From positions 9,263-73,262 of the IMG/VR virus record IMGVR_UViG_3300032323_003671: DNA of 64,000 nucleotides; one strand, written 5' to 3'. Below the pieces are notes generated by a model. It ran no database searches. It had not been told where the DNA came from and saw only the letters and a program-made list of their open reading frames with translations. A program made the position numbers and the translations under genes. Position 1 is the stretch's first letter. Every line of letters begins with the position of its first letter. The DNA comes from a virus. Positions 7,657-34,101 of the stretch are shown here, one piece after another.

Positions 7657-7685
7657 AAAGGGAGACTACTATTATTCATCTCCCC
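7657..7685. terminator. intrinsic terminator between convergent units (U-tail on - strand, ends the tmRNA)
   Basis: GGGAGA...TCTCCC hairpin followed by TTTTT on the - strand. Confidence 0.7.
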
Positions 7686-7930: not shown

Positions 7931-7931
7931 T

Positions 7932-7939
7932 CAAAGATA
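7932..7939 (-). promoter_or_regulatory. Bacteroidota -7 promoter element for the tmRNA
   Basis: TATCTTTG matches TAnnTTTG immediately upstream of the acceptor piece. Confidence 0.7.
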
Positions 7940-9931: not shown

Positions 9932-12900
9932 TTGAAAAAGATAAAAAAAACTAGCGATGCCAAGGATGGAGGACTATTTGTTGGCAAATCACATGACGAT
10001 GGTGGGATTCCTGCTATAGTTGTAGATACTGGACAACCTATTGAGGTTGAAGGTGGTGAAGCTATTATTAATAAAAAGGCCACAGCCAAACACTGGAAAG
10101 AATTATCAAAAATCAATCAAAGTACTGGTGGCGTTCCAATTCCTCCTCCTGATCGAGCAGATGAACTTATGGACAAGTTTGAAAAGGGAGGAAAGTTAAC
10201 TCAATTGGAGAAAAAAACTATTCACAACAAGTGGAAAAACTTGGTGAATATGACATACACTGAATTGAGAAAGTATTATGATTCCAAAGATGGCAAAACT
10301 AGTGGCTTAACTCAAAAAGAAGCTGATGATTTAGGTATTGATTCAGGTCGTGAAAGTGCTGTATGGATCATGAAAATGAAACGCACAAACTACAAGGATT
10401 GGACACCTGAAATGTGGCGTTGGGCTAAAAAACAAATAAGTTTTATATCTCGAATGAGAGGTAACCAAGGCGAGTTAATGGAAAATGGCAGAAGAACTCC
10501 AAAATTAAAATCATTATTGATTTGGGGTCATAATCCTTACAAATATGCAGGAGGCGGAGACATTCCAGCTGAAGCAAAGTATCCAGTTGATGCAAATTCT
10601 CTTCAAGTAATGCTTAAATATGCATCAAAAGAAGATGCACCTGCTATTCAGGAACAAATAGCCAAACTTAAACAAGAACATAAAGAAAAGTACCAAAAGA
10701 ATCGGAAAAAATATAAAGGAGGTGGTAAACCATCGGATATTGCCTCTGCAATACTTGGATTGAAAGCACTTTTGAAATATCCAGAATTACTAGAAAAATT
10801 TGATAAGGAAAATATAGAATACACTATCAAAGGATTAGAAATTCTTGATAAAATGCATCCTTCTGAAATTGATCCTAACGATACAAGTAGTGGAGTGAAA
10901 TTTATTCCATACAAGGATTACGAAATAATGTATGATCCATATACTAAAAACTACTATGCTAACGATGCTGAATTTGATTCTTTAGAAGATGCAAAAGCAT
11001 TTTTAGATTCAGGTAAAATTTCTGATTCAATTAGAGGTGCAATGCATTATGAAGTGTATGGATATTCAAAAGGTGGGTCAGTAAATAATCAAACACTTTT
11101 AGCACCAAATGGTAAACCAACTAAATTAACTCCAGAACAATACAAATTAGTTCGTACACCAGAATTCAAAGCCTGGTTTGGAGATTGGGAAAATGATCCT
11201 GAAAGCGCAAGTAAGGTAGTTGATAGTAATGGTGAGCCTAAAATATATTATCAAGGCGTACCATATTATCTATATCCTAATGGAAAATTTATTTACGAAA
11301 AAGATAATAATGGAATATTTTTTACATCTGATAAAAGAATCGCTTTAACATATGGGGTAGTAAAAGAAGTATTCATCAATTGCAGAAATCCAAAAGATAT
11401 CAGAAATTATTTTGGATTCGATGGTAAAAAAATACCGAATAGTGTCAGAAATGATAGAAACTATGATTTTAAATCGGAAGAAGAAATCCAATATGCCAAT
11501 TCAGATAAAGAAGTCATTAAATTTTATAAGGAAGTTATCAATAAGTATGGTAAACCCATTGAAATAACTGTTGATTCTACTGGTGAAAAATTCAAATTTA
11601 AGAGTGTAGAAGAAATAAAAAAATTCTTAATTCCAACTTCAGAAAAAGGATTTTCATTTTTGAATTTTACACGTAGAAGTCTTTTTTGGAATTGGATAGC
11701 AGAATATATTAAAAATTCTGAATACGATGGGATATTTGCAACTGATGAAGATCGTCTTTCTGAAGAAATATCAGATAGTGTAGTTGTTTATAATTCTAAT
11801 CAAATAAAACTTGCAGATGGAACGAATACTACTTTTGATTCTGAAAATCCTGATATTCGATTTGAAGATGGAGGATCAGTAAATAATCAACCACTTTTAG
11901 CACCAAATGGTAAACCAAGTAATCTATCGCCAGAACAATACAAATTAGTTCGCACACTAGAATTCAAAGCATGGTTTGGCGATTGGGAAAAATTGATTCA
12001 AGTCAAAATGAATGATTCTGCTATAGATGAAATTTCTCTGAAAAAAATATCAGATACAGTAAGTAAGGTCGTGGATTCAAATGGCGAACCTATGGTGGTT
12101 TATCACACAACTGACAAAGAATTTTTTATTTTCGATAAAAAAAAATCAAAAGAAGGATTCTTTTTCTCACCTCAAAAAGAAAGACTTTCAGTATATAATA
12201 AATCAAAAATAGGTCAGTATTTTTTAAATGTAAAAAATCCTTCTCACGAATTGTTTAAATCAGATGTGAATTATATTTTATCGAAAGGATACGATGGAAT
12301 TATGGATTATGGCCATGCAAGAAAAATAAATGAATCCTTGTATGAAATAATTGTTTTCGAACCTAATCAAATAAAACTTGCAGATGGAACGAATACTACT
12401 TTTGATTCTGAAAATCCTGATATTCGATTTGAAGATGGTGGCAAGACTGATTTAACATACAAAGAAAAATACAACAAGAAATATGGGTATGATTTGGATA
12501 AGTCTCACAGTCTTGAAGAAATAGCATCAAAAACAGGTATTTCACTTGAAGGGCTTCAAGAAATTTTCAATAAAGGTGTGGGTGCTTATAGAACAAATCC
12601 TGAAAGCGTTAGACCAAATGTAAAATCTCCAGAACAATGGGGAATGGCTAGAGTTTATAGCGCAGTCATGGGCGGTAAAACAGCAAAGATAGATTCAAAA
12701 GAACTTAAAATGGAAGGCGGAGGCAAAACCGATTCAGAAATGAATATAGAAAGATACGTTGTCAAACCTAGAGTAAAATTTGGGATGGTATTTGGGTATG
12801 TTGTTTACGATAATTTAGAAAAAAAGAATTTGCCTTATGATTATGATGAAGATGAACAATGGAAAGCTCAATCAAAAGCAGATTTACAAAACGAATTGGA

Positions 12901-13345
12901 GAAAAATCGTTTAAATAAAATGGAAGAAGGTGGCGTAACAGATAAAAAAGATACAGTAACCTTAGATATTCCATTACTCATAAGATTATTAGAATTATCA
13001 AGAGAAGACATTCAATCAGATGCTGACTTACACAAGGTTGTAGAAAATATGCTCGATTTAAAAAATAAGGAGGTCTTAACAATGGAGGATTATGATAAAA
13101 TTTCTCAAATCGCAAAAGAAAAATTAATTTCCCAAGCGCATTATAATTTGACAAGAAAACAAGGCCGACCTGAATACGCACCGAATTCACGTGAAATTGA
13201 AGCAGAGATTGAAAGAATGATAAATACAGAAAAATCAAAATTTGCCGATGGTGGAATACTAGAATCTGATACAATGGTAGTTCTACAATCACCAACTGAA
13301 ATGTTGGATGAAATCAACTTTAATGCACAATTTAAACCAGAATAA
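9932..13345 (+). CDS. large modular polyvalent protein (DUF3140-like, two ART-PolyVal-like modules, DUF5824-like)
   Basis: Two LAPNGKP...FKAWFGDWE...SKVVDSNGEP...QIKLADGTNTTFD modules; W..LVNMT..EL and KGVGAY...QWGMARV blocks; about nine [FMY]xxGG linkers. Confidence 0.7.
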   Translation: MKKIKKTSDAKDGGLFVGKSHDDGGIPAIVVDTGQPIEVEGGEAIINKKATAKHWKELSKINQSTGGVPIPPPDRADELMDKFEKGGKLTQLEKKTIHNKWKNLVNMTYTELRKYYDSKDGKTSGLTQKEADDLGIDSGRESAVWIMKMKRTNYKDWTPEMWRWAKKQISFISRMRGNQGELMENGRRTPKLKSLLIWGHNPYKYAGGGDIPAEAKYPVDANSLQVMLKYASKEDAPAIQEQIAKLKQEHKEKYQKNRKKYKGGGKPSDIASAILGLKALLKYPELLEKFDKENIEYTIKGLEILDKMHPSEIDPNDTSSGVKFIPYKDYEIMYDPYTKNYYANDAEFDSLEDAKAFLDSGKISDSIRGAMHYEVYGYSKGGSVNNQTLLAPNGKPTKLTPEQYKLVRTPEFKAWFGDWENDPESASKVVDSNGEPKIYYQGVPYYLYPNGKFIYEKDNNGIFFTSDKRIALTYGVVKEVFINCRNPKDIRNYFGFDGKKIPNSVRNDRNYDFKSEEEIQYANSDKEVIKFYKEVINKYGKPIEITVDSTGEKFKFKSVEEIKKFLIPTSEKGFSFLNFTRRSLFWNWIAEYIKNSEYDGIFATDEDRLSEEISDSVVVYNSNQIKLADGTNTTFDSENPDIRFEDGGSVNNQPLLAPNGKPSNLSPEQYKLVRTLEFKAWFGDWEKLIQVKMNDSAIDEISLKKISDTVSKVVDSNGEPMVVYHTTDKEFFIFDKKKSKEGFFFSPQKERLSVYNKSKIGQYFLNVKNPSHELFKSDVNYILSKGYDGIMDYGHARKINESLYEIIVFEPNQIKLADGTNTTFDSENPDIRFEDGGKTDLTYKEKYNKKYGYDLDKSHSLEEIASKTGISLEGLQEIFNKGVGAYRTNPESVRPNVKSPEQWGMARVYSAVMGGKTAKIDSKELKMEGGGKTDSEMNIERYVVKPRVKFGMVFGYVVYDNLEKKNLPYDYDEDEQWKAQSKADLQNELEKNRLNKMEEGGVTDKKDTVTLDIPLLIRLLELSREDIQSDADLHKVVENMLDLKNKEVLTMEDYDKISQIAKEKLISQAHYNLTRKQGRPEYAPNSREIEAEIERMINTEKSKFADGGILESDTMVVLQSPTEMLDEINFNAQFKPE
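11796..12438 (+). repeat. 76-bp exact direct repeat (11796-11871 and 12363-12438)
   Basis: ctaatcaaataaaacttgcagatgg...tttgaagatgg is identical in both copies; module starts near 11077 and 11877 are also near-identical. Confidence 0.9.
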
Positions 13346-13348
13346 TAA

Positions 13349-16300
13349 ATGGAAGCCCAAGATATTCAAAAACAGGTAGAAGAAAGATTAAAAGCTCAAC
13401 AAGAAGGCAAGGAATTCAAAGACATTGGTAAGGTTGCATATACTAAAAAAGAAATGGCAGCCTACAGATTAATATCATCAAAAATGCTTGTGGATTTAGA
13501 AGTAGATCCTACAATAGCATTTAACATGGTCAAAAAAGAAAATGTTTGGCCTGCATATAATGTTCAAGAATTAAAAGAAAAAGGTGTTTCTAGTGGTGCT
13601 GCATTTATGATGGTTAAATTAAGGACATCAGTTCCTAATAAACCTGAAAACTCTCCAAATAAGAGATCAAGTTATGTTCATTTTTTAGAATTACTTCAAT
13701 CAGATTTACAAAAGTGTATGACTTACTCTGATGTTTACAATTTGGCTCAAGAGTATCAAAAAATGCCATTGGATAAATTGATTGAATACTTTATCGATCC
13801 ATCTATTTTCCAGATGGATGAAGAAAATAGAATACTTGTTTTAGAAAAAGCCAAAAATAATCCTTCTATTCAGAAATTTACAAGTCGAGGATCTATATAT
13901 AATTTATTTAAAGAAGTATTTGCAACAACATTTGCAAATCTCATTTTTAACAAGACAGATGCAACTAATGCAGTATGGTATCAAGCTAGAGAATTTGCAG
14001 CACTTTCAGAAGAAGATTCTAAAACGCTTATTGACAAACAAATTGAATCGACAAAAAAGCAAGTAGAAGAAAATAATGCTGAAATTGAAAAAATCAAATC
14101 TGCATCATTTTCAGAACTAAAAAAAATAGCTGAAAAATATTACAGATTAAGTTCAGCAGCTAAAAAAATATACTATAGTGATCAACCTAAGTTGATGGAA
14201 TTTCTATTAGAAACCTTTCAAAGGAAAAATCAAAGGAGGGAGCTTGAACTTGCGGCATACAAACAAAAATATTCTCCAAGGTTAGAGGATTGGAGTTGGT
14301 TTGAAAAACCTAAAACTGAATCAGATACTCCAACAAAAAAGAGAGAGAAATCTATTAATACCAAAGAACCTTTATCTTATATAAAAAGAATAGGTGGATA
14401 TAAAATAAACACTGTCAAGGCACAAGAAATTATTGATTTATTTGGTTTTTCAGCTGTCAATTATGGAAAATATGTTGATGATGCCTGGTCGAAGCAACAC
14501 ACTAAACATTTTTTAGGTGCAATTTCAGATTTAGGTGATGTTTTAAACATTGATATTAAAAAAGTAAATGAGATAGGTGGATTGTCTATTGCTTTTGGTG
14601 CGAAAGGTATTGCTGGACACATGGCAACATATTTTTCTCAAAGTCATGATATAAATCTTACTAGAGGAAATGGAGATGGTTCAGTTGCTCATGAATGGGG
14701 ACATTATTTTGATAACATACTTTGTGATTTATCTGAAAAGAAAGCAGAACCAAAATTTGCATCAGCATCAAAAGCTGATAACGCAAGTATATCTGATATA
14801 GTTTCAAAAATAATGAACTTTATTTATAAAGGAGATCCAGAATATACCCCTAGAATTCCAATGACTTTTTATGCCAAAAAGTCTAGTTCTGTACCTTCGT
14901 ATTATAGTTATAAATATGGCAATCAGTCTATAAAAATTTTAGATACTATTGAAGAAACGTTAGATCAGTATTTAGATTTAGCAGAAGTAAATAGAGATAG
15001 ATATAATACTCAGTTAAGAGTTTTTGGATATATCATCGATGCCTTCGGTTTGGATAAATATTTGATTCCTATGAAATTGACTACAAGTTATCACTTTCAT
15101 AAATCTGCTTATTTTTCTTTCGTTTATTCAGGCACAAAAGAAAATGGTCAGCCTGCAATAATTACTGGTACAAGATCAGCCTATTGGACAAAAAATGTTG
15201 AGTTGTTTGCAAGAGCTTGGGAAACAGTAATTCTTAAAAAATTACTAGACAAAAATAGAGTTAGCAACTATTTAGTTGCTGATATTAATATGCAAGATGT
15301 CATTGATGAAAATTGGTTTCAACCTTATCCACAAGGAAAAGAACTTGAATATCTTGAAACTTTAATTGATGAACTAATAGATGCATTCAAATTAGTTTAT
15401 TCGGTGGGAGATTTCAATCCACCAAGTAGTATCAGAGAGGATGAATATTTAGATTTATCTCCGAATACAGATGAAGGTAAAACTGAATCAGGAATGGTAA
15501 TTGATAAATCAACCGAAACAAAAACAACAACTTTTATTGAAAACGATAAGGTAGTTGAACAAATTAAAAAACCAAGAAAACCTAGAACAAAGAAAACCGA
15601 AGCTGTCTCTCCAGAACCAAGTGTGGCAGCAATTGAAGAAAATTCTCTAGAATTACAAGAAGATGAAGAACCAAAAGTAGAAGAAATGCAAGAACAAGTA
15701 AAAAATGAATCGATTGACGATTCTCAGATAAATGTTTCTCTTTATGCAAATAATTGGAATCAAGTTCCTATTCGATGGAAAAATGTCAAAGGTATTCGTC
15801 CAATAGTAGTCAGTTTAAATCCATTTGATAAAAACCTATTAAGTCTTGCAAAAATTATTGTCAATACAAACATTAATTTCACCCCAAAACCAATTTTTAG
15901 TGCAATGTCTTTTGATAGCTCTGGAGTAACTTTTACAGATGCAAAGAAATTAGTTCATATCGCAGGTGAAAACATAGATTACACAGGAAACTATCCTACT
16001 TCTGAAACATCAAAATTTTTTCCAGGTTCAATTGAAAAACAAACCAAAGAATTGAATGCTATTCAATATCCGAATTGGAGATCGATAGTACCTAAAGAAA
16101 GCAAAGTAGAAAAAATAGAGATTGATAAACTTTATCAGTATGTTGTAGTTGCACTAAACTATGCAAACAAAATAAATCATACCATTGGATTTAAGTTTAG
16201 CAATTCAGATTTTATTGGATTTGATGGTGAGTTTCTAAAAGACATTTTAGAAGTACTTATGAAACTGCAACATACCAAAGATATCTATGTTCATTGGGCA

Positions 16301-17770
16301 AGTTCAAGTAGAGCTGTTTTATTTAGTTATGAAAAATCAATTGACATTGAAAAATCAACTTATGCGTTATTAATGCCGATGATGTTGCATGATGGTATTA
16401 ATCAATTAGGTGCATCAGATATTGATTACAAAAAAGATTTGAATTGTTATTTTGATTTTTCTGATAATCAAATTTATAATGCCGATGGATCAGTAGCAGA
16501 CTACAAAGAAAACTATGGAGATGCACCAGGAATGTCTTTGAATTTAATTTCAATGTTCGCTTCTTTCTTAAAATCAAGTAAATCAAAAAAAGACGCATAT
16601 TTTTATAGCTACATAAGAGTAGATAACGATAGTATATTGGTTTCTGATAAGAATACAAGACTTGAAATTCCAAATGATTATGATTTAATAACAGGTCTTT
16701 ATACTATTGAGAACAATGTTTTAATTCGTGATATTTCTGCAGATATAGATAACTATTCACTCGAAAAGAGAATAGCTACAAAAGATCCGATATTTGTTGC
16801 TAACACAGAGCAATTGCTTTTTTATATGAACAAAATGTCAAATCACCTATCTGATGATGATGATTTCAGACCTAAATTATCTGGATATATTTTTGAGAAA
16901 AAAGATAATCAAGTAAATGCAGTATCTACAGATGCTCATACTTTGATCAAACTTGATATCACAAATGCAATTGAATCTTCAATCGATGAATTCAATGTAA
17001 TTCTTGGGAATGCCACAACATTAATGAATGTTTCAAAATCTTGGGATTCAAAAAAAGTTGCGGTTTACATTGATAGTAAGGAAGAAAAATATCGTATCGT
17101 TTCAGATAGAATTCATTTTGAAGGTAAATTATATGACAAAGGCGTTACAAATTGGCGAGCAGTAACTCCAAACATTGTAAATAATCAATTGAAATTTAAT
17201 GTTAAAGATTTATTCTCTTGTTTGACTAATCCCGAACTTAAAAAGTATGCCGATAAATTCGGATCAAAAGTAAAAGACCTAGCTTTGTATAACAACTTTA
17301 ATGAAGTTTATGCGATTTATGATGCAAAAAACAATAATGAAAGTATCAAAGTTTGTGATTTAAAATTAAATCATACTGAAATAAACGAGTTGTTTAATAT
17401 CAATGAATCTTATGTTTTAATAATGCCTGTTGTATTTACGAATGGAAATTATTTCAATTTAGGAATAGGCAAACTTGAAGATGTAATGAATTCTATTGGT
17501 AAAGAAGAATGTACAGTAGTATATAAGGAATTAAATAGTGGCTATGTCTTCACTTCTGAAAATCTTTATTACAAAAACTCGGATGTTTACAAACCTGAGA
17601 AACCTAAAAAAGTTCAAAAACCAGTTGTCAAACCATCTGAACCTACTAATCAAAAGCAAGAAATATTAGATGCTTTAACTGGTGCGAAAACACTACTAAA
17701 ATACGTATCAGGAGAGGATAAATCAAATCTTTCGGCTTATATTAGAGGACTTGAAATCCTAATGAAATAA
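13349..17770 (+). CDS. large polyvalent protein: LPD1-like zincin region plus C-terminal beta-clamp-like domains
   Basis: HEWGH and ELFARAWE motifs; RPKLSG...VNAVSTDAHTL and YPNWRSIVP resemble DnaN motifs. Confidence 0.65.
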   Translation: MEAQDIQKQVEERLKAQQEGKEFKDIGKVAYTKKEMAAYRLISSKMLVDLEVDPTIAFNMVKKENVWPAYNVQELKEKGVSSGAAFMMVKLRTSVPNKPENSPNKRSSYVHFLELLQSDLQKCMTYSDVYNLAQEYQKMPLDKLIEYFIDPSIFQMDEENRILVLEKAKNNPSIQKFTSRGSIYNLFKEVFATTFANLIFNKTDATNAVWYQAREFAALSEEDSKTLIDKQIESTKKQVEENNAEIEKIKSASFSELKKIAEKYYRLSSAAKKIYYSDQPKLMEFLLETFQRKNQRRELELAAYKQKYSPRLEDWSWFEKPKTESDTPTKKREKSINTKEPLSYIKRIGGYKINTVKAQEIIDLFGFSAVNYGKYVDDAWSKQHTKHFLGAISDLGDVLNIDIKKVNEIGGLSIAFGAKGIAGHMATYFSQSHDINLTRGNGDGSVAHEWGHYFDNILCDLSEKKAEPKFASASKADNASISDIVSKIMNFIYKGDPEYTPRIPMTFYAKKSSSVPSYYSYKYGNQSIKILDTIEETLDQYLDLAEVNRDRYNTQLRVFGYIIDAFGLDKYLIPMKLTTSYHFHKSAYFSFVYSGTKENGQPAIITGTRSAYWTKNVELFARAWETVILKKLLDKNRVSNYLVADINMQDVIDENWFQPYPQGKELEYLETLIDELIDAFKLVYSVGDFNPPSSIREDEYLDLSPNTDEGKTESGMVIDKSTETKTTTFIENDKVVEQIKKPRKPRTKKTEAVSPEPSVAAIEENSLELQEDEEPKVEEMQEQVKNESIDDSQINVSLYANNWNQVPIRWKNVKGIRPIVVSLNPFDKNLLSLAKIIVNTNINFTPKPIFSAMSFDSSGVTFTDAKKLVHIAGENIDYTGNYPTSETSKFFPGSIEKQTKELNAIQYPNWRSIVPKESKVEKIEIDKLYQYVVVALNYANKINHTIGFKFSNSDFIGFDGEFLKDILEVLMKLQHTKDIYVHWASSSRAVLFSYEKSIDIEKSTYALLMPMMLHDGINQLGASDIDYKKDLNCYFDFSDNQIYNADGSVADYKENYGDAPGMSLNLISMFASFLKSSKSKKDAYFYSYIRVDNDSILVSDKNTRLEIPNDYDLITGLYTIENNVLIRDISADIDNYSLEKRIATKDPIFVANTEQLLFYMNKMSNHLSDDDDFRPKLSGYIFEKKDNQVNAVSTDAHTLIKLDITNAIESSIDEFNVILGNATTLMNVSKSWDSKKVAVYIDSKEEKYRIVSDRIHFEGKLYDKGVTNWRAVTPNIVNNQLKFNVKDLFSCLTNPELKKYADKFGSKVKDLALYNNFNEVYAIYDAKNNNESIKVCDLKLNHTEINELFNINESYVLIMPVVFTNGNYFNLGIGKLEDVMNSIGKEECTVVYKELNSGYVFTSENLYYKNSDVYKPEKPKKVQKPVVKPSEPTNQKQEILDALTGAKTLLKYVSGEDKSNLSAYIRGLEILMK

Positions 17771-17797
17771 ATAATAACTTTGTTAAAATCTTTTAAA

Positions 17798-18262
17798 ATG
17801 AATATTGCAGAAATCAAATCAGACATTCGAGATCTTGAAGCAGCTATAAAATCTCCTCAAACTCCAGATAACTTTAAAGAAAAAATGAAAGCGCAAGTTG
17901 AAGTTCTTAAAGTTAAACTTGAAGAGGCCGAATCCAAAGCCAAAGAACCAGCACCTGCTGAACCAAAAATTGAGCCGAAAAAAAAAGGTGTTCCATTACC
18001 TAAAGATCAACAACAAAAAGTTGAATACGATTGTGATGAACTAATTGCTCAGGCAAAGGCTAGACGTAAAGCAGCTAAAGAGCGTTCAAAAGCTCCTAAA
18101 AAAACCGAAGCGACAAAGAACAAAGAAAAAATCGAAACAGTATTTGATAATGTGAAAAAACGTGCAGACGAAAAAGACATTTCAAAAGCAGAAATTGAAA
18201 AGCTAATTTCTGAGACAAAAACATTATTAAAATTATTAGAGACTAAATTATCATCTCTTTAA
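17798..18262 (+). CDS. coiled-coil/basic hypothetical protein
   Basis: Helical, Lys/Glu-rich; ATG 17798 preferred over TTG 17780. Confidence 0.65.
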   Translation: MNIAEIKSDIRDLEAAIKSPQTPDNFKEKMKAQVEVLKVKLEEAESKAKEPAPAEPKIEPKKKGVPLPKDQQQKVEYDCDELIAQAKARRKAAKERSKAPKKTEATKNKEKIETVFDNVKKRADEKDISKAEIEKLISETKTLLKLLETKLSSL

Positions 18263-18279
18263 AATCAAAAGTTCTTATC

Positions 18280-20811
18280 ATGGAATATAAATTGAAATTT
18301 GAAAATGGTCGCAGTTGTGAAATTTACTGTGAATCAGATGGCAAACCTTTGCAAGATAAAATAAATGCTGCCGAAGAAAGATTTGGTAGTAAAGTAAAAA
18401 CCATCAATGGCAAAGAAGTAACTGAACATGGTCTTGGTGGATTCTTAGTTGGTGCGATTATCGGTGGTTTAGCTGGTAATTCTGTATCCAAACAAGGCGT
18501 TAAAAAGACTATTAAATCAGTAGGTACAGAAGCCAAAAAAGTTGTCAAGAAAACAACAACAATTGCAAAAAAAGCAGTTGATGCAGTAAAAAAAAAAGAA
18601 GCACCAAAAAGTAAAAAATCAAACTACGTTCCAAATAGACTAATTGATTCAATAGAAACAAAGTCAGGAAAAAAGATTGATAATAAGGATATTATCGATG
18701 GCGCACATACTAAAAAGAAAATTTTAGTTTCTAAAAAAAGAGTTGCATCAACTCCAAAAGATATCGATAAAGAAAAAGCACTTAAACTTCAAAGTGATTA
18801 TCTATCTGCTAGAGAAATTAAAGTAGTAAACACTACCTATGGTCGTAAAATCAAAGGATCTGAAATCATTGATGGTGCATACGTCAAAAAAGGTGTTTTT
18901 GCCGATGGTGGTTCAATAGAAGGGTTCAATTGGAAATCATTTACCATATCTGAGCTTATTGAAGTTCTACCAGAAGATGTTCAATTTCTTTATTTCCAAA
19001 GACCTGATAAAAAAGAGTACATTAATTATTCAGATGTATTGAAAGATAAATCATTATTGAATACTACATGGACTATTTCAGATTCTGGAGACATGAGTTT
19101 ATCAAAAGGTTCTGAAAACTTGTACTTGGACATTGTAGTTTATGATCAGGCTACACGATCAGAGCAAGAAAATAAAATATCAATTTACACAAAAGATAAT
19201 CATTCAGGATTGAAGAAGTTTGCATCTTCTTTAATTGAGAAATTCAAATCAGGCGGTAAAACAAAAGATAAATATGAAGGAGATATTGTAGAAATACGTC
19301 CTGCTTCTAAAAAATCAAACAAATTCATTATTTGGTCAGTTAAAAATGATATGATTTGGGCTAATGAAAAATTTGATTCAGTTTCTGAAGCCAAAGAATT
19401 TATTGAGCAAAACAAATTAGTTCTAAAAGACTCTTCAATCTTTGAAGGCGGAGGCAAAACCGACTATCGCTATGAATACATGTTATTAGATCGTTTACGT
19501 CAAGACAATGATTACTTCCTAGGTTTCGGTGCTAGAAATCCAAATAGATTGTGGGCAGGTAATGTAGACGAACAAATAGCCGAAATGAAAAAATTGTATA
19601 ATAGTCTGCCTGAAAAGCCTGAATGGATTACCATGGAGGATATCGAAGAATATGAACGCAAAATGAAAACCGAAGAAATGGCTAAAGGTGGTGTGATTGG
19701 CGACAGTGGTACAATTACTGACACCAAAAGCATGTATCAAGGAAAGATGGGATTCATTGAGATGGACATGGGCAACGAATGGATTGTTAAAGTTCTGGAT
19801 AATGGTAAAGAAAAAAGCGTAACAGTTCGTAAATCTGGATTTAAAATACTTGAAGACGAAGAGTTTGGTGATGGTGGCAAAACTTCTAAAGAATATAAAA
19901 TCTTTGAAGGATTTGATCATCTAAAAAAGAAAAATGTCTATCGAGTTATTGGTGTAGAAAACGATTATGTTGGTGAATGGCATAATACTCGTGAAGAAGC
20001 TCAATCTGAGATTGATTCAATGAGTCAAAAATTTGCATCAGGTGGGATTGTAGGCAAGGACGTTACATTTAACCACTGGTCTGGTGATATTCGAAAAGGT
20101 ATCATTACAGAGCAACTTGAAGATGGCCAATATGCAGTAAGTTCTGGTTATGGTTCAGTTTTAGTTAGTCCTGATGATATAATCTCAACAAGTGAAAGAG
20201 TTCCGCAAAAGAAATTCTTAGGAATTTTTGAAAAAGGCGGTATCGCAAATGATAAAAAAAAGTATGCTAAAGGTGGCAGCATAACATTTTCAGAAGATGA
20301 TCAAGAAGGATTTGATTATTGGATTGAAGATGGTAATGCAAGAAAAAATGCAGATGGTACTTATTCCACACAAGATGCTCAATATCGAAATAAATTAACT
20401 TTAGATGAGTTAAAAAGATATTTTGTTAAAGAGTATTTGCCTGATAGCGATTATTTGAATCCAAGAGTTGAATCAAATCTTTTGACTGATGAAGAAAATG
20501 ATACCTTAAATGAAGAATTAGAATCATTTGAAGACCTAATTGATTACAAGGATATAAATACCTTCAGTTCGGGAGGGAATATGAATCACACTATGATTTT
20601 GTTAGATAATGGTCATATTTTGACTATTAATTGGGATTCAAAAGATGTTCAGTATTCTTTAGAAACATATCCTTCTATTGAGCAATATGCTTTTTCAGAA
20701 GATGGAGAATCAGGTTGGGATAATGAGTACTACACAGAAAACTCTGAATCTAGAATGAGTAACTTAAATGATGAAAGTTTATATTCATTTCTTTACAGAT
20801 TGGTTGATTAA
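18280..20811 (+). CDS. modular protein with LPD11-like domain, glycine zipper and SH3-like modules
   Basis: YMLLDRLRQDNDYFLG..LWAGNVDEQI.EMK.LY..LPEKPEWIT is LPD11-like; about nine [FMY]xxGG linkers. Confidence 0.7.
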   Translation: MEYKLKFENGRSCEIYCESDGKPLQDKINAAEERFGSKVKTINGKEVTEHGLGGFLVGAIIGGLAGNSVSKQGVKKTIKSVGTEAKKVVKKTTTIAKKAVDAVKKKEAPKSKKSNYVPNRLIDSIETKSGKKIDNKDIIDGAHTKKKILVSKKRVASTPKDIDKEKALKLQSDYLSAREIKVVNTTYGRKIKGSEIIDGAYVKKGVFADGGSIEGFNWKSFTISELIEVLPEDVQFLYFQRPDKKEYINYSDVLKDKSLLNTTWTISDSGDMSLSKGSENLYLDIVVYDQATRSEQENKISIYTKDNHSGLKKFASSLIEKFKSGGKTKDKYEGDIVEIRPASKKSNKFIIWSVKNDMIWANEKFDSVSEAKEFIEQNKLVLKDSSIFEGGGKTDYRYEYMLLDRLRQDNDYFLGFGARNPNRLWAGNVDEQIAEMKKLYNSLPEKPEWITMEDIEEYERKMKTEEMAKGGVIGDSGTITDTKSMYQGKMGFIEMDMGNEWIVKVLDNGKEKSVTVRKSGFKILEDEEFGDGGKTSKEYKIFEGFDHLKKKNVYRVIGVENDYVGEWHNTREEAQSEIDSMSQKFASGGIVGKDVTFNHWSGDIRKGIITEQLEDGQYAVSSGYGSVLVSPDDIISTSERVPQKKFLGIFEKGGIANDKKKYAKGGSITFSEDDQEGFDYWIEDGNARKNADGTYSTQDAQYRNKLTLDELKRYFVKEYLPDSDYLNPRVESNLLTDEENDTLNEELESFEDLIDYKDINTFSSGGNMNHTMILLDNGHILTINWDSKDVQYSLETYPSIEQYAFSEDGESGWDNEYYTENSESRMSNLNDESLYSFLYRLVD

Positions 20812-20820
20812 AAGCAAATT

Positions 20821-21585
20821 ATGAAAAAAGAAACTATTGTAAGAAACACAATGCGTGAATTCAAGGAAGGGAAATTGCGTTCATCAAGTGGAGAAAAAGT
20901 TACTAGTCGCAAACAGGCGATTGCTATTGCTTTAAGTAAATCAGGTCAGTCCAAATTTGCTGCAGGTGGTATGGTAGGTCAAAACTTAGTTTTTGATCGT
21001 TGGGATGAAAAGTTAGAAGGCCGAATTATTGAAATAACTGATTCAGGTGATTATATCGTTTCTTCTGGATCGAGAACTATTCTTGTTAGTCCTGATGATA
21101 TCATTTCTTATGGAGACATGAAGCCTAAAAAAAGATTTTCTTTTTTCAAGGATGGTGGCACTACAAGTTCAGAGACGATTCTTTGGGCGGTAAAAGTAGG
21201 AGAACCTGATTGGAAAGAAGTTCTGATTACAAATAATCCAGATAAAATTGATGAAGCTCGAAAATGGGCTTCAGAAAATGGATTTGATAGATTTAGAGTT
21301 GCTTCTGTGGATATGTCAAGTCGTCCAGACTTTACCAAAACTTTTAAAGATGGAGGTGATGTAATGAAATACGATTGGGCTTCAATGTGGAAAAAACCAT
21401 CTAAGTCTAGTAGAGTTATGATTGGTGATGTTGTTTTTCAAAAACATTCAGACCAACCTTACAAAATCATTGAATTACTTGATGATCAATACACAGTTGC
21501 GAAAATCGTTAATAATGAAGAAACCGAATGGAAAACCTTCAATAAGGATTTTTATGAGCATCGTATGTTTGAAAAACGTAATTAA
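20821..21585 (+). CDS. modular protein, N-terminal DUF6496-like domain
   Basis: MREFKEGKLRSSSGEKVTSRKQAIAIALS; FAAGG/FKDGG/FKDGG linkers. Confidence 0.7.
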   Translation: MKKETIVRNTMREFKEGKLRSSSGEKVTSRKQAIAIALSKSGQSKFAAGGMVGQNLVFDRWDEKLEGRIIEITDSGDYIVSSGSRTILVSPDDIISYGDMKPKKRFSFFKDGGTTSSETILWAVKVGEPDWKEVLITNNPDKIDEARKWASENGFDRFRVASVDMSSRPDFTKTFKDGGDVMKYDWASMWKKPSKSSRVMIGDVVFQKHSDQPYKIIELLDDQYTVAKIVNNEETEWKTFNKDFYEHRMFEKRN

Positions 21586-21595: not shown

Positions 21596-22303
21596 ATGCT
21601 ATTTTCAAGAAGCAATTTAAAAACTTTCTTTGATTCGGTATTAACTGGTGAAAGCAAGACTTATGATGATCACAATTGGTACACTTCTTCAGGATTAAGA
21701 TCATATATTAGAGGAGTCAATCAGAATCGCAACTCTGCATTAAGTAAGGATTTATCTGATACCACTATTGCCGATGTCATGAAATTCCAAAAGAACCAAC
21801 GTTCTAGCACTTCTGGCCAACTTTGGGCTACTGGAAGGTATCAGATTATTCCGACAACCTTAAAAGGCCTTGTGGATAACTATAAAATAAATCCAAATCA
21901 AAAGTATAGTGAAGCGGTTCAGGATGAACTTGGCGAAAAACTTTTACTTGGCAGAAGTAATCTTAGGAAGTACTTAAAGAAAGAAGTTCCTGATACCAAA
22001 GAAAATCGTGAGAAAGCAGCATTGGATATGGCAAAAATATGGAGTTCTATCGGAGTTCCATACGATATGCAAGGTTCAAGAAAAGCTATTAAGAAAAACC
22101 AAAGTTATTATTCTGGAGGTGGTGATACTGCATCTGTAAAAACCGAAACAGTTCAAGCAGCATTGCAAAAATTACGAAACTCAGATAATACAACACAAGA
22201 AAGTCCAAAACCAAATAATAATGGTAAAATTTTGGATAGTGTTTTCATTGCATTGTTTGTCATTGGATCTTACATTTTCTACAAAAAAATGACATCTATT
22301 TAA
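21596..22303 (+). CDS. lysozyme-fold muramidase/transglycosylase with C-terminal membrane anchor
   Basis: GES..Y, ATGRYQIIPTTL, QD motifs; hydrophobic C-terminus. Confidence 0.75.
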   Translation: MLFSRSNLKTFFDSVLTGESKTYDDHNWYTSSGLRSYIRGVNQNRNSALSKDLSDTTIADVMKFQKNQRSSTSGQLWATGRYQIIPTTLKGLVDNYKINPNQKYSEAVQDELGEKLLLGRSNLRKYLKKEVPDTKENREKAALDMAKIWSSIGVPYDMQGSRKAIKKNQSYYSGGGDTASVKTETVQAALQKLRNSDNTTQESPKPNNNGKILDSVFIALFVIGSYIFYKKMTSI

Positions 22304-28159: not shown

Positions 28160-28912
28160 ATGAACGCAACAGAAAAAGAATTGCATCGCTTTTTAGGGGT
28201 AGCTGAAAAAATGTCTGGATACGATGGTATGGACTATGAAGGCGACCTTTCGTCTTTTGACGATATGGATTTCTTTGATGGTGGAGAAGGTATTAACGAC
28301 CCGATGTCTTTCGCTGATGGTGGAGCATCAACCGTTAACGTTTCTAACCCATACGTTATCCAATATGTTAACTCAACACCAGGTACTCTTACCGCTGTGT
28401 TGTTCGGTTACAACAACTTCTTTAATGATCCAACAGGTCAGTTCGGCAACCCAGTGGGTATCACCGTAACCAACTTGCAAGGTTCATCTTATGCTGCCTT
28501 GATTGGTCAGACTTCAAACAAAGCATTCCAAATTGGAAAATGGCGTTTTCAGTCTGCTTCAGCTGGTCAGTTGAGCCAAACACTTACTGTATCACATTTC
28601 GATGCGAACGGTAACCAATACTCAACTCCGTTGAACTTATCAATCATGCGTGATGCTTACCAGTTCCAGTCAGATATCTTGGATATCACCAAGGTAATCA
28701 CAGTGGACGGTAACACTCAAATCACGTTCCCATTGTTAGCGTTGACTACATTGGTAATCTCTATGTTCCCAGTAAGCGTTGTTAGTACTAAAGCAGTACT
28801 TAACGGTGGTATAGCTCTTAACAAAGCAGTTGCTCCACGTCTTTCTGGTAAAAACGTAGCACCAGTGATTATCAACACTAATCAAAGAGTTGGTGGCGTA
28901 ACCAAAGCGTAG
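28160..28912 (+). CDS. putative major capsid protein (beta-rich, possibly single jelly-roll) with acidic propeptide
   Basis: Strong high-expression codon bias (AAC/TTC/ATC), own terminator, near packaging ATPase, two paralogs; fold is inferred. Confidence 0.6.
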   Translation: MNATEKELHRFLGVAEKMSGYDGMDYEGDLSSFDDMDFFDGGEGINDPMSFADGGASTVNVSNPYVIQYVNSTPGTLTAVLFGYNNFFNDPTGQFGNPVGITVTNLQGSSYAALIGQTSNKAFQIGKWRFQSASAGQLSQTLTVSHFDANGNQYSTPLNLSIMRDAYQFQSDILDITKVITVDGNTQITFPLLALTTLVISMFPVSVVSTKAVLNGGIALNKAVAPRLSGKNVAPVIINTNQRVGGVTKA

Positions 28913-32963: not shown

Positions 32964-33325
32964 TTAGTGTAGAAACAGCTCGTCCAGTATATTCAGCTTT
33001 TGGTGGTAAGGATCTTACTCCAGAACAAAAGAAAGAACGTCAAAAAAAACGTATCGAAAAAGCAAAACAAATCTATCAAACTGCAAAAGAGACAGGTAGC
33101 TTAACAGCACTTGAAAATATTGCAATGAGAGCAGGTGCGCCATTAGCTCCCACAACTGATCCAAACTCAGGTGGTGGTGCAGGTGTTGGCACAAATGGTG
33201 ATCCAAAAGGAAAAGGATGGGCAGACCTATCTACTCCTTATAAAGTAGGTATCATTGGTGGCAGCCTTTTAGTTGTAGGTGTAGCTGTTTGGTATTTTGG
33301 ATTTAGAAACAAAGCAAAGAAGTAA
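32960..33325 (+). CDS. tail-anchored membrane protein
   Basis: N-terminus MISVETARPVYS shared with 45720; C-terminal TM. Confidence 0.65.
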   Translation: MISVETARPVYSAFGGKDLTPEQKKERQKKRIEKAKQIYQTAKETGSLTALENIAMRAGAPLAPTTDPNSGGGAGVGTNGDPKGKGWADLSTPYKVGIIGGSLLVVGVAVWYFGFRNKAKK

Positions 33326-34101
33326 TGGAACAAACTTGGGAAACGGATAAAAGATCGCTTTCCTTGAATGTTTCAATTAAATGTCAAGGCAAATGCAAAT
33401 TTCGTGTAGTTGCCACAGATTTTAATGTAAACACCAAGTATGCTGATCGTACAATTGAAGTAGATGGTTTTCGAACAATCTATTTGTCTTTTGTAACATC
33501 TCCAGAGAAAGTGAGAATCATTGTAACTCCAAAAGGAGATACAAACAACTATTTGGTGGATATCAAAGAGAAACCACTAAAGACATATCAGATTTATCTT
33601 GACGAACAAGCGAAGAAATTTGTAAAGTTTGCACAAGAATTTTCTAGTGTATGTGGATACTCTAAAGCAACACCACAAGGCCGATTTTTCAGAACTAAGG
33701 ACAAAGAGTTCTCAATTCGTTTTTATCCTTTCATTTCCCAAAATGGAAAAGTAAGCACCTCGCCTGCTAGAATTGGCCACAATACTGGTATTATTGACGT
33801 ATCTAAACTTCATTTTGATAGATATACAATACCAATGAGAATGATTATTCTTTTACACGAATTTTCTCATAAGTATCGTAATCCTAAGATCGATCTTGAA
33901 ATATCAAATGAGTTTGGGGCAGATTTAAACGCATTATACATATATTTGGGATTAGGTTACTCCAAGGTGGATGCAATCTTTGTTTTTGCTAATGTATTTT
34001 TGAAAGCTCAGACCGATCAGAATATAATGCGCATGCGTAAAATCATGGATTACATTCAGAAATTCGAAAATGGAGAAATCGCCAAACCATTGACAAATTA
34101 A
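33325..34101 (+). CDS. HExxH zinc metalloprotease (candidate maturation protease)
   Basis: ILLHEFSH ... NEFGAD zincin motif inside the structural operon. Confidence 0.7.
   Translation: MEQTWETDKRSLSLNVSIKCQGKCKFRVVATDFNVNTKYADRTIEVDGFRTIYLSFVTSPEKVRIIVTPKGDTNNYLVDIKEKPLKTYQIYLDEQAKKFVKFAQEFSSVCGYSKATPQGRFFRTKDKEFSIRFYPFISQNGKVSTSPARIGHNTGIIDVSKLHFDRYTIPMRMIILLHEFSHKYRNPKIDLEISNEFGADLNALYIYLGLGYSKVDAIFVFANVFLKAQTDQNIMRMRKIMDYIQKFENGEIAKPLTN

What the first reader, a model, noticed from the sequence alone, without database searches (positions are those of the whole stretch)
9932..21585. Candidate polyproteins: domains delimited by a recurrent [FMY]xxGG motif
Seen: about 20 copies across three ORFs. 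9932 has FEKGG, YAGGG, YKGGG, YSKGG, FEDGG x2, MEGGG, MEEGG, FADGG. 18280 has FADGG, FKSGG, FEGGG, MAKGG, FGDGG, FASGG, FEKGG, YAKGG. 20821 has FAAGG and FKDGG x2. They fall at domain borders: the LPD11-like, DUF5824-like, DUF3140-like, DUF6496-like and both ART-like modules start and/or end at the motif. The MCP candidate also has FFDGG/FADGG ending its acidic N-terminus. Known: adenovirus protease and ASFV pS273R cut virion precursors after GG motifs. Inference: these are packaged polyproteins cut into many small effectors, or the motif is a packaging/docking tag that also acts as a recombination joint for swapping domains.
Basis: partly seen in the sequence, partly recalled or inferred. Interest (0 to 1): 0.88.

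Follow-up and report, generated by a model that had tools for sequence, protein, structure and literature searches.

The report
Gly-Gly seams in phage cargo proteins
Three neighbouring genes of an uncultured phage encode chains of small, swappable protein modules joined by one conserved eight-residue Gly-Gly peptide, which may be a cutting signal for a viral protease, although no cut has been shown.

Summary
[FMY]xxGG occurs 21 times in ORFs 9932-13345, 18280-20811 and 20821-21585, against 1.35 expected from shuffles. The stricter form [KR][FMY]xxGGx[VILT] occurs 11 times in the 73-kb record, always in these ORFs. No Pfam domain straddles a site. In relatives, homology breaks and modules are inserted, replaced or lost at the sites. 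The signal is a Pro-free peptide, K-[FYM]-x-x-G-G-x-[IVLT], and its codons vary. It recurs in all 150 best metagenome relatives, 1105 sites against 104 shuffled. Two crAss-like/Bacteroides polyvalent proteins with the same ART domain have 0 and 4 loose matches, none in seam-like context. Stand-alone LPD11 genes have none.

Cleavage is inferred, not shown. No GG-specific cysteine protease or prohead protease was found. The "MCP" is a jelly-roll protein of unproven role, and its orthologues keep only [FY]AxG.

I give cleavage about 0.45 and an uncut hinge or docking peptide about 0.3. This scan has already noted the same seam on other DNA. I found no published description.

The parts
9932..13345 (+). 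Seam-jointed modular protein P0001 (1137 aa), 10 segments. They are: a conserved N-terminal domain (1-87), DUF3140 (88-209), two unassigned (210-265, 266-382), two ART-PolyVal modules (383-648, 649-837), DUF5824 (838-931), two unassigned (932-1001, 1002-1108) and a 29-aa tail.
   Evidence: Translation; Pfam; segment map; 775 local BLAST HSPs against relatives.
13349..17770 (+). Neighbouring giant polyvalent protein P0004 (1473 aa). It has HEWGH at about aa 448-452, LPD1 at 609-680 and a beta-clamp-like region at about 1166-1294. It has no seam.
   Evidence: Its zincin part (aa 301-720) had no blastp hit in 10 related contigs.
17780..18262 (+). Small ORF (160 aa) inside the cluster. No family match and no seam.
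   Evidence: Homologues in G001, G002 and G005.
18280..20811 (+). Seam-jointed modular protein P0002 (843 aa), 10 segments. These include an N-terminal region with a hydrophobic Gly-zipper-like stretch (aa 53-70), LPD11 (393-471) and an SH3-like module (590-654).
20821..21585 (+). Seam-jointed modular protein P0003 (254 aa), 4 segments: DUF6496 (1-50), an SH3-like module (51-113) and two unassigned (114-179, 180-254).
21596..22303 (+). Endolysin-like ORF that closes the cluster. It has one seam-like YYSGGG at aa 171-176.
   Evidence: PHROG phrog_90 'endolysin', E 3.8e-16.
10178..10192 (+). Seam FEKGG (P0001 aa 83-87)
10544..10558 (+). Seam YAGGG (P0001 aa 205-209)
10712..10726 (+). Seam YKGGG (P0001 aa 261-265)
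11063..11077 (+). Seam YSKGG (P0001 aa 378-382)
11861..11875 (+). Seam FEDGG (P0001 aa 644-648), end of ART module 1
12428..12442 (+). Seam FEDGG (P0001 aa 833-837), end of ART module 2
12710..12724 (+). Seam MEGGG (P0001 aa 927-931). Bases 12713-12732 are identical to 19444-19463.
12920..12934 (+). Seam MEEGG (P0001 aa 997-1001)
13241..13255 (+). Seam FADGG (P0001 aa 1104-1108)
18898..18912 (+). Seam FADGG (P0002 aa 207-211)
19243..19257 (+). Seam FKSGG (P0002 aa 322-326)
19441..19455 (+). Seam FEGGG (P0002 aa 388-392), immediately before LPD11
19678..19692 (+). Seam MAKGG (P0002 aa 467-471), immediately after LPD11
19864..19878 (+). Seam FGDGG (P0002 aa 529-533)
20032..20046 (+). Seam FASGG (P0002 aa 585-589)
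20227..20241 (+). Seam FEKGG (P0002 aa 650-654)
20263..20277 (+). Seam YAKGG (P0002 aa 662-666), only 12 aa after the previous seam
20563..20577 (+).
20956..20970 (+). Seam FAAGG (P0003 aa 46-50)
21145..21159 (+). Seam FKDGG (P0003 aa 109-113)
21343..21357 (+). Seam FKDGG (P0003 aa 175-179)
28160..28912 (+). P0006 (250 aa). It has a disordered acidic N-terminus ending in FADGG (aa 51-55), then a jelly-roll-like core from about aa 62.
33325..34101 (+). P0005 (258 aa): a beta-sandwich (1-85) followed by a zincin-like domain with HEFSH (178-182) and Glu196. It is the candidate trans-acting peptidase and is conserved in relatives.

Best explanation
ORFs 9932-13345, 18280-20811 and 20821-21585 encode polyvalent, cargo-type proteins of an uncultured phage. 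Each is a string of small, autonomous modules: two ART-PolyVal, DUF3140, DUF5824, LPD11, DUF6496, SH3-like and several unassigned, 24 segments in all. Every junction carries the same eight-residue seam, K-[FYM]-x-x-G-G-x-[IVLT]. The seam acts as a peptide, not as DNA. It is free of proline and appears only where one module is followed by another. Relatives gain, lose and exchange modules at the seams. These points are shown. The following is inferred. The seam is the recognition site of one trans-acting endopeptidase that releases the modules as separate small proteins, either in the particle or after delivery into the host. This would be the processing step that Iyer et al. (2017) postulated for polyvalent proteins. 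The only conserved protease-like gene nearby is the stand-alone zincin 33325-34101. The seam would then serve two purposes: a processing code, and a neutral in-frame joint at which recombination can swap cassettes without harming either neighbour.
For: 1. Enrichment: 21 sites against 1.35 in shuffles, and strict form 11 of 11 in these ORFs.
2. Extended specificity at positions that were not used to define the motif, from 983 sites in 171 proteins with ART-type ends removed. Lys at -1 is 42% (background 10.6%). I/V/L/T two residues after GG is 83%. Pro is 0-1% from -1 to +6 (background 3.3%) and rises to 6-8% just outside.
3. One seam per junction. Median spacing is 76 aa (IQR 62-111) in 21 ORFs of six genomes.
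4. The seam is present only between modules. Stand-alone LPD11 genes of Cellulophaga phage phi17:2 and of a faecal phage contig lack it. P0003 stops exactly where its orthologues continue with FGAGG plus one more module. Only 2 of 21 ORFs end at a seam.
5. Homology breaks at seams. HSP ends lie within 5 aa of GG in 51.5% of 103 HSPs against 10.6% random, and in 45% of 775 HSPs against 9% for P0001.
6. Multi-domain neighbours of the P0004 type are poor in seams: 0 in 1473, 1 in 2255, 2 in 1503 and 6 in 2368 aa. The seam is therefore not this phage's generic linker.
7. Synonymous codons vary at the seam.
8. A related [FY]-A-x-G lies between the disordered acidic N-terminus and the folded core of P0006. 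It is the only such conserved column among 16 conserved proteins of the neighbouring module.
9. P0005 has invariant HExxH and Glu196 in 11 of 11 aligned orthologues and an HExxH in 13 of 13 homologues. Its model has pLDDT 90.4, with the helix, sheet and two helices that passages of Iyer et al. describe for zincin-like MPTases. It aligns with BepA at Z 7.4, rmsd 3.5 over 113 residues. A homologue is present in 10 of 10 related contigs and in 10 of 18 further contigs, including 3 of the 4 that are at least 90% complete.
Against: No cleavage product has been observed, and no proteomic data were available. No protease co-varies with the seam independently of descent: P0005 is a core gene of the whole virus group, and it is also present in G006, a 146-kb contig with only 15 loose and 1 strict match. 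P0005 lies just upstream of probable fibre genes, so it could be a host-envelope-directed virion enzyme instead. Its fold match is within the range the tool calls common (Z below 8), and no Pfam or PDB sequence hit is significant. Orthologues of P0003 join two modules with no seam between them, so separation is not obligatory. In 41 of 103 HSPs homology runs across a seam. For P0003 the HSP starts are not enriched near seams (17% against 27% random). In phiCrAss001 the cargo protein gp45 is modelled as one chain reaching from tail to capsid, and the words 'cleav' and 'proteoly' do not occur in that paper. Large virion proteins can therefore work uncut. The GG of P0006 is not conserved.
Confidence: 0.45

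Rival explanations
1. The seam is an uncut functional peptide. It could be a hinge or unfolding joint, or a repeated docking handle. The proteins would stay whole as beads on a string. The seam would then let modules unfold and thread one by one through a narrow exit channel. Alternatively it would bind one common partner many times: the capsid interior, a chaperone, or the clamp-like domains of the neighbouring protein P0004.
For: Gly-Gly gives flexibility. A Pro-free stretch with two hydrophobic anchors six residues apart suits binding to a groove as well as it suits a protease. phiCrAss001 gp45 is described as a continuous chain spanning tail and capsid that is ejected with partial unfolding (passages). 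Like gp45 in that paper, P0002 has an N-terminal hydrophobic segment. No dedicated GG protease was found. Some modules are joined without any seam.
Against: A docking tag is needed once per protein, not at every junction. A passive hinge does not explain 42% Lys at -1 or 83% I/V/L/T at +6. The multi-domain neighbours and two crAss-like/Bacteroides polyvalent proteins with the same ART domain do without it: 0 in 2232 aa, and 4 in 3633 aa in a different context. The modules also exist as free-standing small genes elsewhere.
Confidence: 0.3
2. The seam is mainly an evolutionary device with no biochemical partner. It would be a tolerated, standardised in-frame junction that persists because recombination between seams creates viable new module orders.
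For: Modules are replaced, inserted and lost exactly at seams. Two seams in different genes share 20 identical bases (12713-12732 and 19444-19463). Two FADGG seams share 14 identical bases within a 24-nt repeat that is 83% identical overall. The two ART modules share near-identical flanks. Two seams 12 aa apart (aa 650-666 of P0002) look like the scar of a deleted module.
Against: Across 131 sites the third codon positions use all four bases. There is therefore no conserved DNA target, and the usual microhomology is only GGN GGN. Recombination benefit alone does not maintain Lys, the aromatic residue and the beta-branched residue in thousands of diverged proteins. The seam is kept at orthologous junctions where no exchange has happened.
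Confidence: 0.12
3. The pattern is a chance or compositional effect of Gly- and Lys-rich, low-GC coding sequence.
For: The motif was defined after it was seen. Gly-rich proteins such as ORF 38334-40862 give loose matches.
Against: 21 observed against a maximum of 8 in 20,000 shuffles. The strict form gives 11 against a mean of 0.048. In 150 independent cluster representatives there are 1105 against 104 shuffled. Flanking positions that were not used in the definition are conserved.
Confidence: 0.01

Closest known systems
Polyvalent proteins of phages and conjugative elements (Iyer, Burroughs, Anand, de Souza, Aravind 2017, J Bacteriol; PMC5512222; passages read)
   Same: Many unrelated small domains in one polypeptide. 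The signature families ART-PolyVal, LPD11 and LPD1 are present. The genes are phage genes next to a conserved, probably virion, gene module. The paper postulates processing into individual units by a zincin-like peptidase.
   Different: In that paper the peptidase (MPTase) sits in the same polypeptide, and no cleavage or junction motif is described: the words 'glycine', 'linker' and 'boundar' occur 0 times in its main text. Here the three seam-bearing proteins carry no peptidase, the Pfam MPTase-PolyVal model finds nothing in the record, the candidate zincin is a separate gene, and a defined eight-residue seam marks every junction. I could not see the paper's supplementary alignments, which might show GG at domain ends.
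T4 prohead protease gp21 with the capsid protein, internal proteins and the ADP-ribosyltransferase Alt (recalled, not read here)
   Same: A packaged ADP-ribosyltransferase and small internal proteins would share one short cleavage consensus with a structural protein. This would parallel the seams plus the [FY]AxG site of P0006.
   Different: The T4 consensus is (L/I)-x-E and the enzyme is a serine protease (S77). No S77 or S78 model matches here. T4 substrates are cut once near the N-terminus, not at about ten junctions per protein.
Adenovirus protease (adenain) and ASFV pS273R acting on virion precursor polyproteins
   Same: A Gly-Gly pair preceded by a hydrophobic residue a few positions upstream, used repeatedly in virion precursor proteins.
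   Different: Those enzymes are clan CE cysteine proteases. Pfam C5 and C48 models find nothing in the 73-kb record. If the cut came after GG, the hydrophobic residue here would be at P5, not P4, and a conserved beta-branched residue would sit at P2'.
Cargo proteins gp45 and gp46 of Bacteroides phage phiCrAss001 (Bayfield et al. 2023, Nature; PMC10172136; passages read)
   Same: Proteins stored in the particle and ejected ahead of the DNA. They have an N-terminal hydrophobic segment and a probable beads-on-a-string organisation.
   Different: gp45 is modelled as uncut, and no seam is reported. The crAss-like protein I checked (cr85_1 RNAP subunit) has 0 seams in the 2232 aa read (a partial read; the CDS is cut by the locus). 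No sequence relationship to gp45 was tested here.

Membership tests
Polyvalent proteins (Iyer et al. 2017) | Several unrelated domains with disparate activities in one polypeptide | tested here: met
   Pfam: ART-PolyVal, DUF5824 and DUF3140 in P0001; LPD11 in P0002; DUF6496 in P0003. There are 24 seam-delimited segments.
Polyvalent proteins (Iyer et al. 2017) | Signature 'PolyVal' or LPD families | tested here: met
   ART-PolyVal E 5.5e-24, LPD11 E 1.5e-30, LPD1 (in P0004) E 2.3e-12.
Polyvalent proteins (Iyer et al. 2017) | Encoded by a phage or conjugative element beside virion or transfer genes | tested here: inconclusive
   The record is an IMG/VR virus record. The genes lie on the same strand as, and directly upstream of, a module conserved in 10 of 10 relatives. 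None of that module's proteins was identified as a known virion protein.
Polyvalent proteins (Iyer et al. 2017) | Delivery into the host together with the DNA | not testable with these tools
   Needs virion proteomics or an infection experiment.
Polyvalent proteins (Iyer et al. 2017) | Zincin-like MPTase in the same polypeptide (frequent, not obligatory) | tested here: not met
   No peptidase family in P0001, P0002 or P0003. PF18818 has no match in the record. HEWGH is present in the neighbour P0004.
Clan CE Gly-Gly-specific viral processing (adenain, pS273R, ULP-like) | A clan CE cysteine protease gene in the genome | tested here: not met
   PF00770 and PF02902 have 0 matches at E<=1 in the 73,262-bp record. 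The record may be incomplete (CheckV 48%), and very divergent members could be missed.
Clan CE Gly-Gly-specific viral processing (adenain, pS273R, ULP-like) | Observed cleavage after GG in virion precursors | not testable with these tools
   No proteomic data.
Double-glycine leader processing (C39 peptidase) | A C39 peptidase domain | tested here: not met
   PF03412 has 0 matches in the record.
Prohead-protease processing of capsid plus cargo (T4 gp21 / HK97-type) | An S77 or S78 prohead protease gene | tested here: not met
   PF03420 and PF04586 have 0 matches in the record.
Prohead-protease processing of capsid plus cargo (T4 gp21 / HK97-type) | The same consensus in a structural protein and in cargo proteins | tested here: inconclusive
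   P0006 keeps [FY]-A-x-G at the junction of its disordered and folded parts, in 8 of 11 sequences and throughout the 32. The second Gly is not conserved, and a capsid role is unproven.
Zincin metallopeptidase (gluzincin, M48-like), for P0005 (33325-34101) | HExxH motif | tested here: met
   H178, E179 and H182 are invariant in 11 of 11 aligned sequences. 13 of 13 homologues carry an HExxH.
Zincin metallopeptidase (gluzincin, M48-like), for P0005 (33325-34101) | A third-ligand Glu on the next helix | tested here: met
   E196 is invariant within N-E-x-G-A-D and lies at the start of helix 196-210 in the model. The likeness to thermolysin's NExxSD is recalled.
Zincin metallopeptidase (gluzincin, M48-like), for P0005 (33325-34101) | Fold similarity to solved zincins | tested here: inconclusive
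   VIA-align gives BepA 6sar_A at Z 7.4, rmsd 3.5, 113 aligned, and 3c37_B at Z 6.4. This is within the range the tool calls common. Foldseek hits were dominated by the N-terminal sandwich.
Zincin metallopeptidase (gluzincin, M48-like), for P0005 (33325-34101) | A significant sequence match to a curated peptidase family | tested here: not met
   No Pfam or PHROG hit. The best among 11 members is Peptidase_M56 at E 0.025, in 2 members. PDB profile search best E 0.079, to a non-catalytic stretch. Atlas leads only: DUF4344 0.88, M48 0.80.

The most novel reading that the evidence does not exclude
The seams are cut. A large, abundant group of aquatic dsDNA phages would then use a true polyprotein strategy: a few genes encode dozens of small effectors (ADP-ribosyltransferases, acetyltransferases, LPD and DUF modules) that are released at a universal code, K-[FYM]-x-x-G-G|x-[IVLT], by a novel stand-alone zincin. 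The same code would double as a standard plug-and-play joint for exchanging effector cassettes between phages.
Probability: 0.35. Interest if true: 0.85.

Novelty: new variant of a known kind. Interest (0 to 1): 0.6.

Why it matters
Polyvalent proteins are thought to be the first weapons a phage or plasmid delivers into a host. How one giant chain serves many targets is an open question, and proteolytic release has been proposed but has no known site. A short, sharply defined junction peptide makes the question testable with one co-expression experiment or one semi-specific proteomic search. The peptide is present in all 150 best representatives examined of more than 8,000 matching cluster representatives. 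It also gives a practical rule for cutting these unannotated giant ORFs into their real functional units. Many of those units are candidate anti-defence or host-takeover proteins. Finally, it shows how phages shuffle such units.

Tried and rejected
Searches that found nothing useful:
- Megablast of the 11.6-kb region and tblastn of P0006 against GenBank phages gave no match. No cultured relative, and so no published virion proteome, could be used.
- The search for related loci with P0004 alone found nothing.
- The search for related loci with the P0003 alignment returned 9 loci that share only DUF6496. None of them had a seam-rich ORF with the seam's sequence context.

P0004's HEWGH zincin as the seam protease: rejected as a general answer. 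Its aa 301-720 have no blastp hit in the 10 related contigs that do carry seams, although those contigs are incomplete.

A protease embedded in the seam proteins: none found. Pfam on 40 of the 150 representatives gave ART-PolyVal in 38, DUF5824 in 20, DUF3140 in 14, DUF5661 in 12 and others. The only peptidase-like hit was one NlpC/P60.

A DNA-level recombination signal: rejected as the main cause, because third codon positions vary.

The N-terminal domain of P0001 (aa 1-87; found in 163 IMG/VR contigs): a profile search of the PDB found nothing. Its function is unknown.

Complex prediction of P0005 plus Zn with residues 20-70 of P0006 gave no verdict. It is neither evidence for nor against.

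P0006 as MCP: Foldseek against the PDB gave no hit at E<=0.001. BFVD and VIA-align gave only jelly-roll matches at noise level, best Z 5.8.

Protein-primed polymerase (PF03175): absent from G000 and from three complete relatives.

Literature: four searches found no description of the seam. They used motif strings, bacteriophage/polyprotein/virion/Gly-Gly, ejected proteins/polyvalent/linker/glycine and cargo protein/crAss001/proteoly. Most subscription journals are not in the library, and supplements were not opened.

Full report
WHAT IS THERE. The window is bases 9263-73262 of a 73,262-bp IMG/VR virus record. It has about 32% GC, and CheckV estimates it as 48% complete. Between a leftward lysis-like operon and a long rightward block of conserved genes lie six tightly packed rightward ORFs:
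- 9932-13345 (P0001, 1137 aa)
- 13349-17770 (P0004, 1473 aa)
- 17780-18262 (160 aa)
- 18280-20811 (P0002, 843 aa)
- 20821-21585 (P0003, 254 aa)
- 21596-22303 (235 aa)

Pfam finds these families:
- P0001: ART-PolyVal (three stretches), DUF5824 and DUF3140.
- P0002: LPD11.
- P0003: DUF6496.
- P0004: LPD1 and a weak beta-clamp domain.

P0004 also carries HEWGH. The last ORF matches endolysin PHROGs. By content these are polyvalent proteins in the sense of Iyer et al. 2017.

THE OBSERVATION. [FMY]xxGG occurs 9, 9 and 3 times in P0001, P0002 and P0003.
- Shuffling each protein 20,000 times gives a mean of 1.35 sites (sd 1.15, maximum 8) against 21 observed.
- Of 28 non-overlapping GG pairs, 17 have F/M/Y at -3, where 11% is expected (p 3.5e-10).
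- The 67 other ORFs of at least 100 aa (15,096 aa) hold 14 loose matches. I had dropped 10 of the 80 ORFs because they overlap longer ones. Most of the 14 are clearly something else: FxGGG repeats of a Gly-rich fibre-like protein, a membrane segment and a Walker-A-like GGIGKT.
- The stricter [KR][FMY]xxGGx[VILT] occurs 11 times in all six-frame ORFs of at least 80 aa in the record. All 11 lie in the three ORFs (shuffle mean 0.048, maximum 3).

P0004 is as long and as multi-domain as its neighbours, yet it has none.

THE SITES ARE MODULE BORDERS.
- The printed (best) Pfam stretch of each family lies inside one seam-to-seam segment. The other two ART-PolyVal stretches were not printed.
- The two ART modules begin five residues after a seam with the same sequence and end in ...NPDIRFEDGG.
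- LPD11 begins four residues after FEGGG and ends at MAKGG. The free-standing LPD11 genes of Cellulophaga phage phi17:2 (gp130) and of a faecal phage contig start and stop at the same places and have no seam.
- Three orthologues of P0003 (P0008, P0009, P0010; about 50% identical to it in alignment A1) keep all seams. Between the second and third seam, however, they carry two different modules. In this genome those modules sit in P0002 (aa 534-589) and P0001 (aa 932-1001). After the point where P0003 stops, the orthologues continue with FGAGG plus a further module.
- The SH3-like module of P0003 (51-113) recurs in P0002 (590-654). It has a seam on both sides in both places.

Quantitative tests:
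- In an all-against-all BLAST of 21 seam-rich ORFs from six related genomes, 51.5% of 103 HSP ends lie within 5 aa of a seam, against 10.6% for random placement. Starts lie within 10 aa in 40% against 20%.
- For P0001 against 178 relatives (150 representatives, 7 other homologues and 21 ORFs), 45% of 775 HSP ends do so, against 9%. Starts: 54% against 16%.

Results that go the other way:
- 41 of 103 HSPs run across a seam, so neighbouring modules are often inherited together.
- For P0003 the HSP starts are not enriched (17% against 27%).
- The orthologues of P0003 join two modules with no seam at all.

THE SEAM IS A PEPTIDE SIGNAL AND IT IS WIDESPREAD. Fourteen IMG/VR contigs share the conserved downstream genes, and I fetched ten of them whole.
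- Five close relatives carry clusters of seam-rich ORFs in the same position. Examples are a 1732-aa ORF with 17 sites, and five consecutive ORFs with 8, 4, 14, 7 and 10.
- More distant relatives have fewer. G006 (146 kb) has only 15 loose matches and 1 strict match.
- A full HMMER search with P0001 found 8,643 cluster representatives at E<=0.001 and 860 at E<=1e-30. The best 150 (206,909 aa) carry 1,105 sites against 104 after shuffling, and none lacks the motif.

After removing ART-type ends, which would bias the logo, 983 sites give this pattern:
- Lys 42% at -1 (background 10.6%).
- F 39, Y 39 and M 22% at position 0.
- A/K/E at +1 and K/D/E/N at +2.
- G-G, then any residue.
- I/V/L/T 83% two residues after GG.
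- Pro 0-1% from -1 to +6 (background 3.3%) and 6-8% just outside.

Spacing has a median of 76 aa in the close relatives. Third codon positions at the seam use all four bases, so selection acts on the peptide. One 20-base stretch is nevertheless identical at two seams in different genes, and the ART modules share near-identical flanks. This is what recent exchange at seams would leave.

The seam is not a property of the domains or of polyvalent proteins in general. A crAss-like protein with the same ART domain has 0 sites in the 2232 aa read (a partial read; the CDS is cut by the locus). A Bacteroides phage protein has 4 in 3633 aa, in unrelated contexts. In Roseobacter phage CRP-701, DUF5824 is fused ahead of what looks to me like a protease-scaffold-capsid chain. 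No family search was run on that protein, and it has no seam.

WHAT COULD READ THE SEAM. Pfam models for adenain (C5), ULP (C48), C39, the prohead proteases S77 and S78, and MPTase-PolyVal find nothing in the record. Forty representative seam proteins contain no peptidase domain apart from one NlpC/P60. Any protease would therefore act in trans.

Its features:
- No Pfam, PHROG or PDB sequence match.
- HExxH and a Glu 14 residues later, in N-E-x-G-A-D, are invariant in 11 of 11 aligned orthologues. 13 of 13 homologues keep an HExxH.
- The AlphaFold model is confident (pLDDT 90.4). It has an N-terminal beta-sandwich (1-85). This is followed by a helix, a small sheet and two helices that carry HExxH and the Glu. 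That is the arrangement the Iyer paper gives for zincin-like MPTases.
- VIA-align places residues 116-249 on BepA, an M48 peptidase (Z 7.4, rmsd 3.5, 113 residues), and on another zinc peptidase (Z 6.4). The tool warns that such Z values are common.

P0005 is present in all ten related contigs. It is also in 10 of 18 further long contigs that carry the N-terminal domain of P0001. Those ten include three complete genomes of 64-84 kb. The one complete genome without it (355 kb) is seam-poor in the stretch I saw.

This co-occurrence cannot be separated from common descent. P0005 also lies next to fibre-like genes, so a role against the host envelope is equally open.

P0004's own zincin part has no homologue in the relatives.

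THE 'MCP' SITE. P0006 (28160-28912) belongs to a large, well-conserved family (625 hits).
- Its first 61 residues are acidic and predicted disordered. FADGG sits at 51-55, and the ordered core starts at about 62.
- Across 32 orthologues the conserved string is M-S-[FY]-A-x-G. The second Gly is not conserved.
- Among 16 conserved proteins of this block it is the only one with a conserved seam-like column.
- The core is a beta-sandwich with weak jelly-roll matches only.

I therefore treat it as a possible second substrate class, not as a proven capsid precursor.

INTERPRETATION. Shown: a specific, Pro-free eight-residue peptide marks the junctions of small autonomous modules in this phage and in thousands of related metagenomic proteins. 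It appears only between modules, and module exchange happens there.

Inferred: because there is one site per junction, and both flanks carry conserved side chains, a single reader protein is likely. A trans-acting endopeptidase is the simplest such reader. This would supply the missing cleavage code for the processing that Iyer et al. proposed. I put this at about 0.45, with P0005 as the enzyme at perhaps half of that.

The main rival, at about 0.3, is an uncut hinge or repeated docking peptide for packing and threading cargo. It is supported by the uncut model of phiCrAss001 gp45 (passages). A purely evolutionary joint (about 0.12) explains the shuffling but not the conserved flanks.

PRIOR NOTES AND LITERATURE. 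This scan has already recorded the same Gly-Gly seam on other DNA, in five followed-up findings on aquatic and crAss-like phages, with the same open question. They agree with what I measured here, and one led me to the Bayfield paper. I found no published description in four full-text searches or in the passages of Iyer et al. that I read. Supplements were not seen.

The specificities of adenain, pS273R and T4 gp21, and the thermolysin NExxSD motif, are recalled rather than checked.

Noticed in passing
window 25255-26094, 28160-29946; relatives G016 and G022: The most conserved genes of the block are a 279-aa P-loop ATPase and jelly-roll-like small proteins. The ATPase has weak HerA/FtsK/TrwB/Zot-type matches and is 57-83% identical in 10 relatives. 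No terminase, portal or HK97 capsid protein was recognised among the 10 block ORFs (24086-42671) run against PHROGs and the 20 ORFs run against Pfam. Two complete relatives (84 and 68 kb) are classed as having inverted terminal repeats. This could be an unusual, possibly non-tailed, virion type. No protein-primed polymerase was found.
   Followed up: partly
window 13349-17770: P0004 combines an HEWGH zincin-like region (matching giant-protein PHROGs), LPD1 and a DNA-polymerase-clamp-like region (phrog_947). Relatives share the clamp part (G005 41%, G006 29%) but not the zincin part.
   Followed up: partly
window 9932-10192 (P0001 aa 1-87): A very conserved N-terminal domain (GK.H..GGI.A.V.D...P.E.E.GE.IINK.A...HW.ELS.INQS) heads the first seam protein in all ten relatives. 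It occurs in 163 IMG/VR contigs. It has no Pfam or PDB match. It might be a packaging or targeting domain.
   Followed up: partly
seam codons, window and G001-G005: The first Gly of the seam uses GGC in 44 of 131 sites, against 152 of 986 Gly codons elsewhere in the same proteins. Unexplained.
   Followed up: no
window 12713-12732 and 19444-19463: Twenty identical bases encode E-G-G-G-K-T-D at seams of two different genes with unrelated flanking modules. This suggests recent exchange or gene conversion at seams.
   Followed up: partly
window 18436-18489 (P0002 aa 53-70): A hydrophobic, Gly-zipper-like stretch lies in the conserved N-terminal region of P0002 (also conserved in G001 and G005). 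It is reminiscent of the N-terminal transmembrane helix reported for phiCrAss001 gp45.
   Followed up: no
window 21596-22303: An endolysin-like ORF (phrog_90, E 3.8e-16) directly follows the seam proteins and carries one seam-like YYSGGG. It may be a virion-associated lysin of the same cluster.
   Followed up: no
L070 (Roseobacter phage CRP-701) 2599-5223: The 874-aa protein annotated as 'major capsid protein' carries DUF5824 at its N-terminus. What follows looks to me like a protease, scaffold and capsid part, but no family search was run on it. DUF5824 may therefore travel as capsid-internal cargo in an unrelated phage.
   Followed up: no
window 5668-6780, 42678-43502, 57917-58615: A C-5 cytosine DNA methylase (E 4e-70), a sulfotransferase (E 7e-19) and a HAD_SAK_2 domain protein (E 5e-21) are encoded elsewhere in the window.
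   Followed up: no
window 7657-7939: A first-stage note proposes a two-piece tmRNA here (seen). I did not examine it.
   Followed up: no
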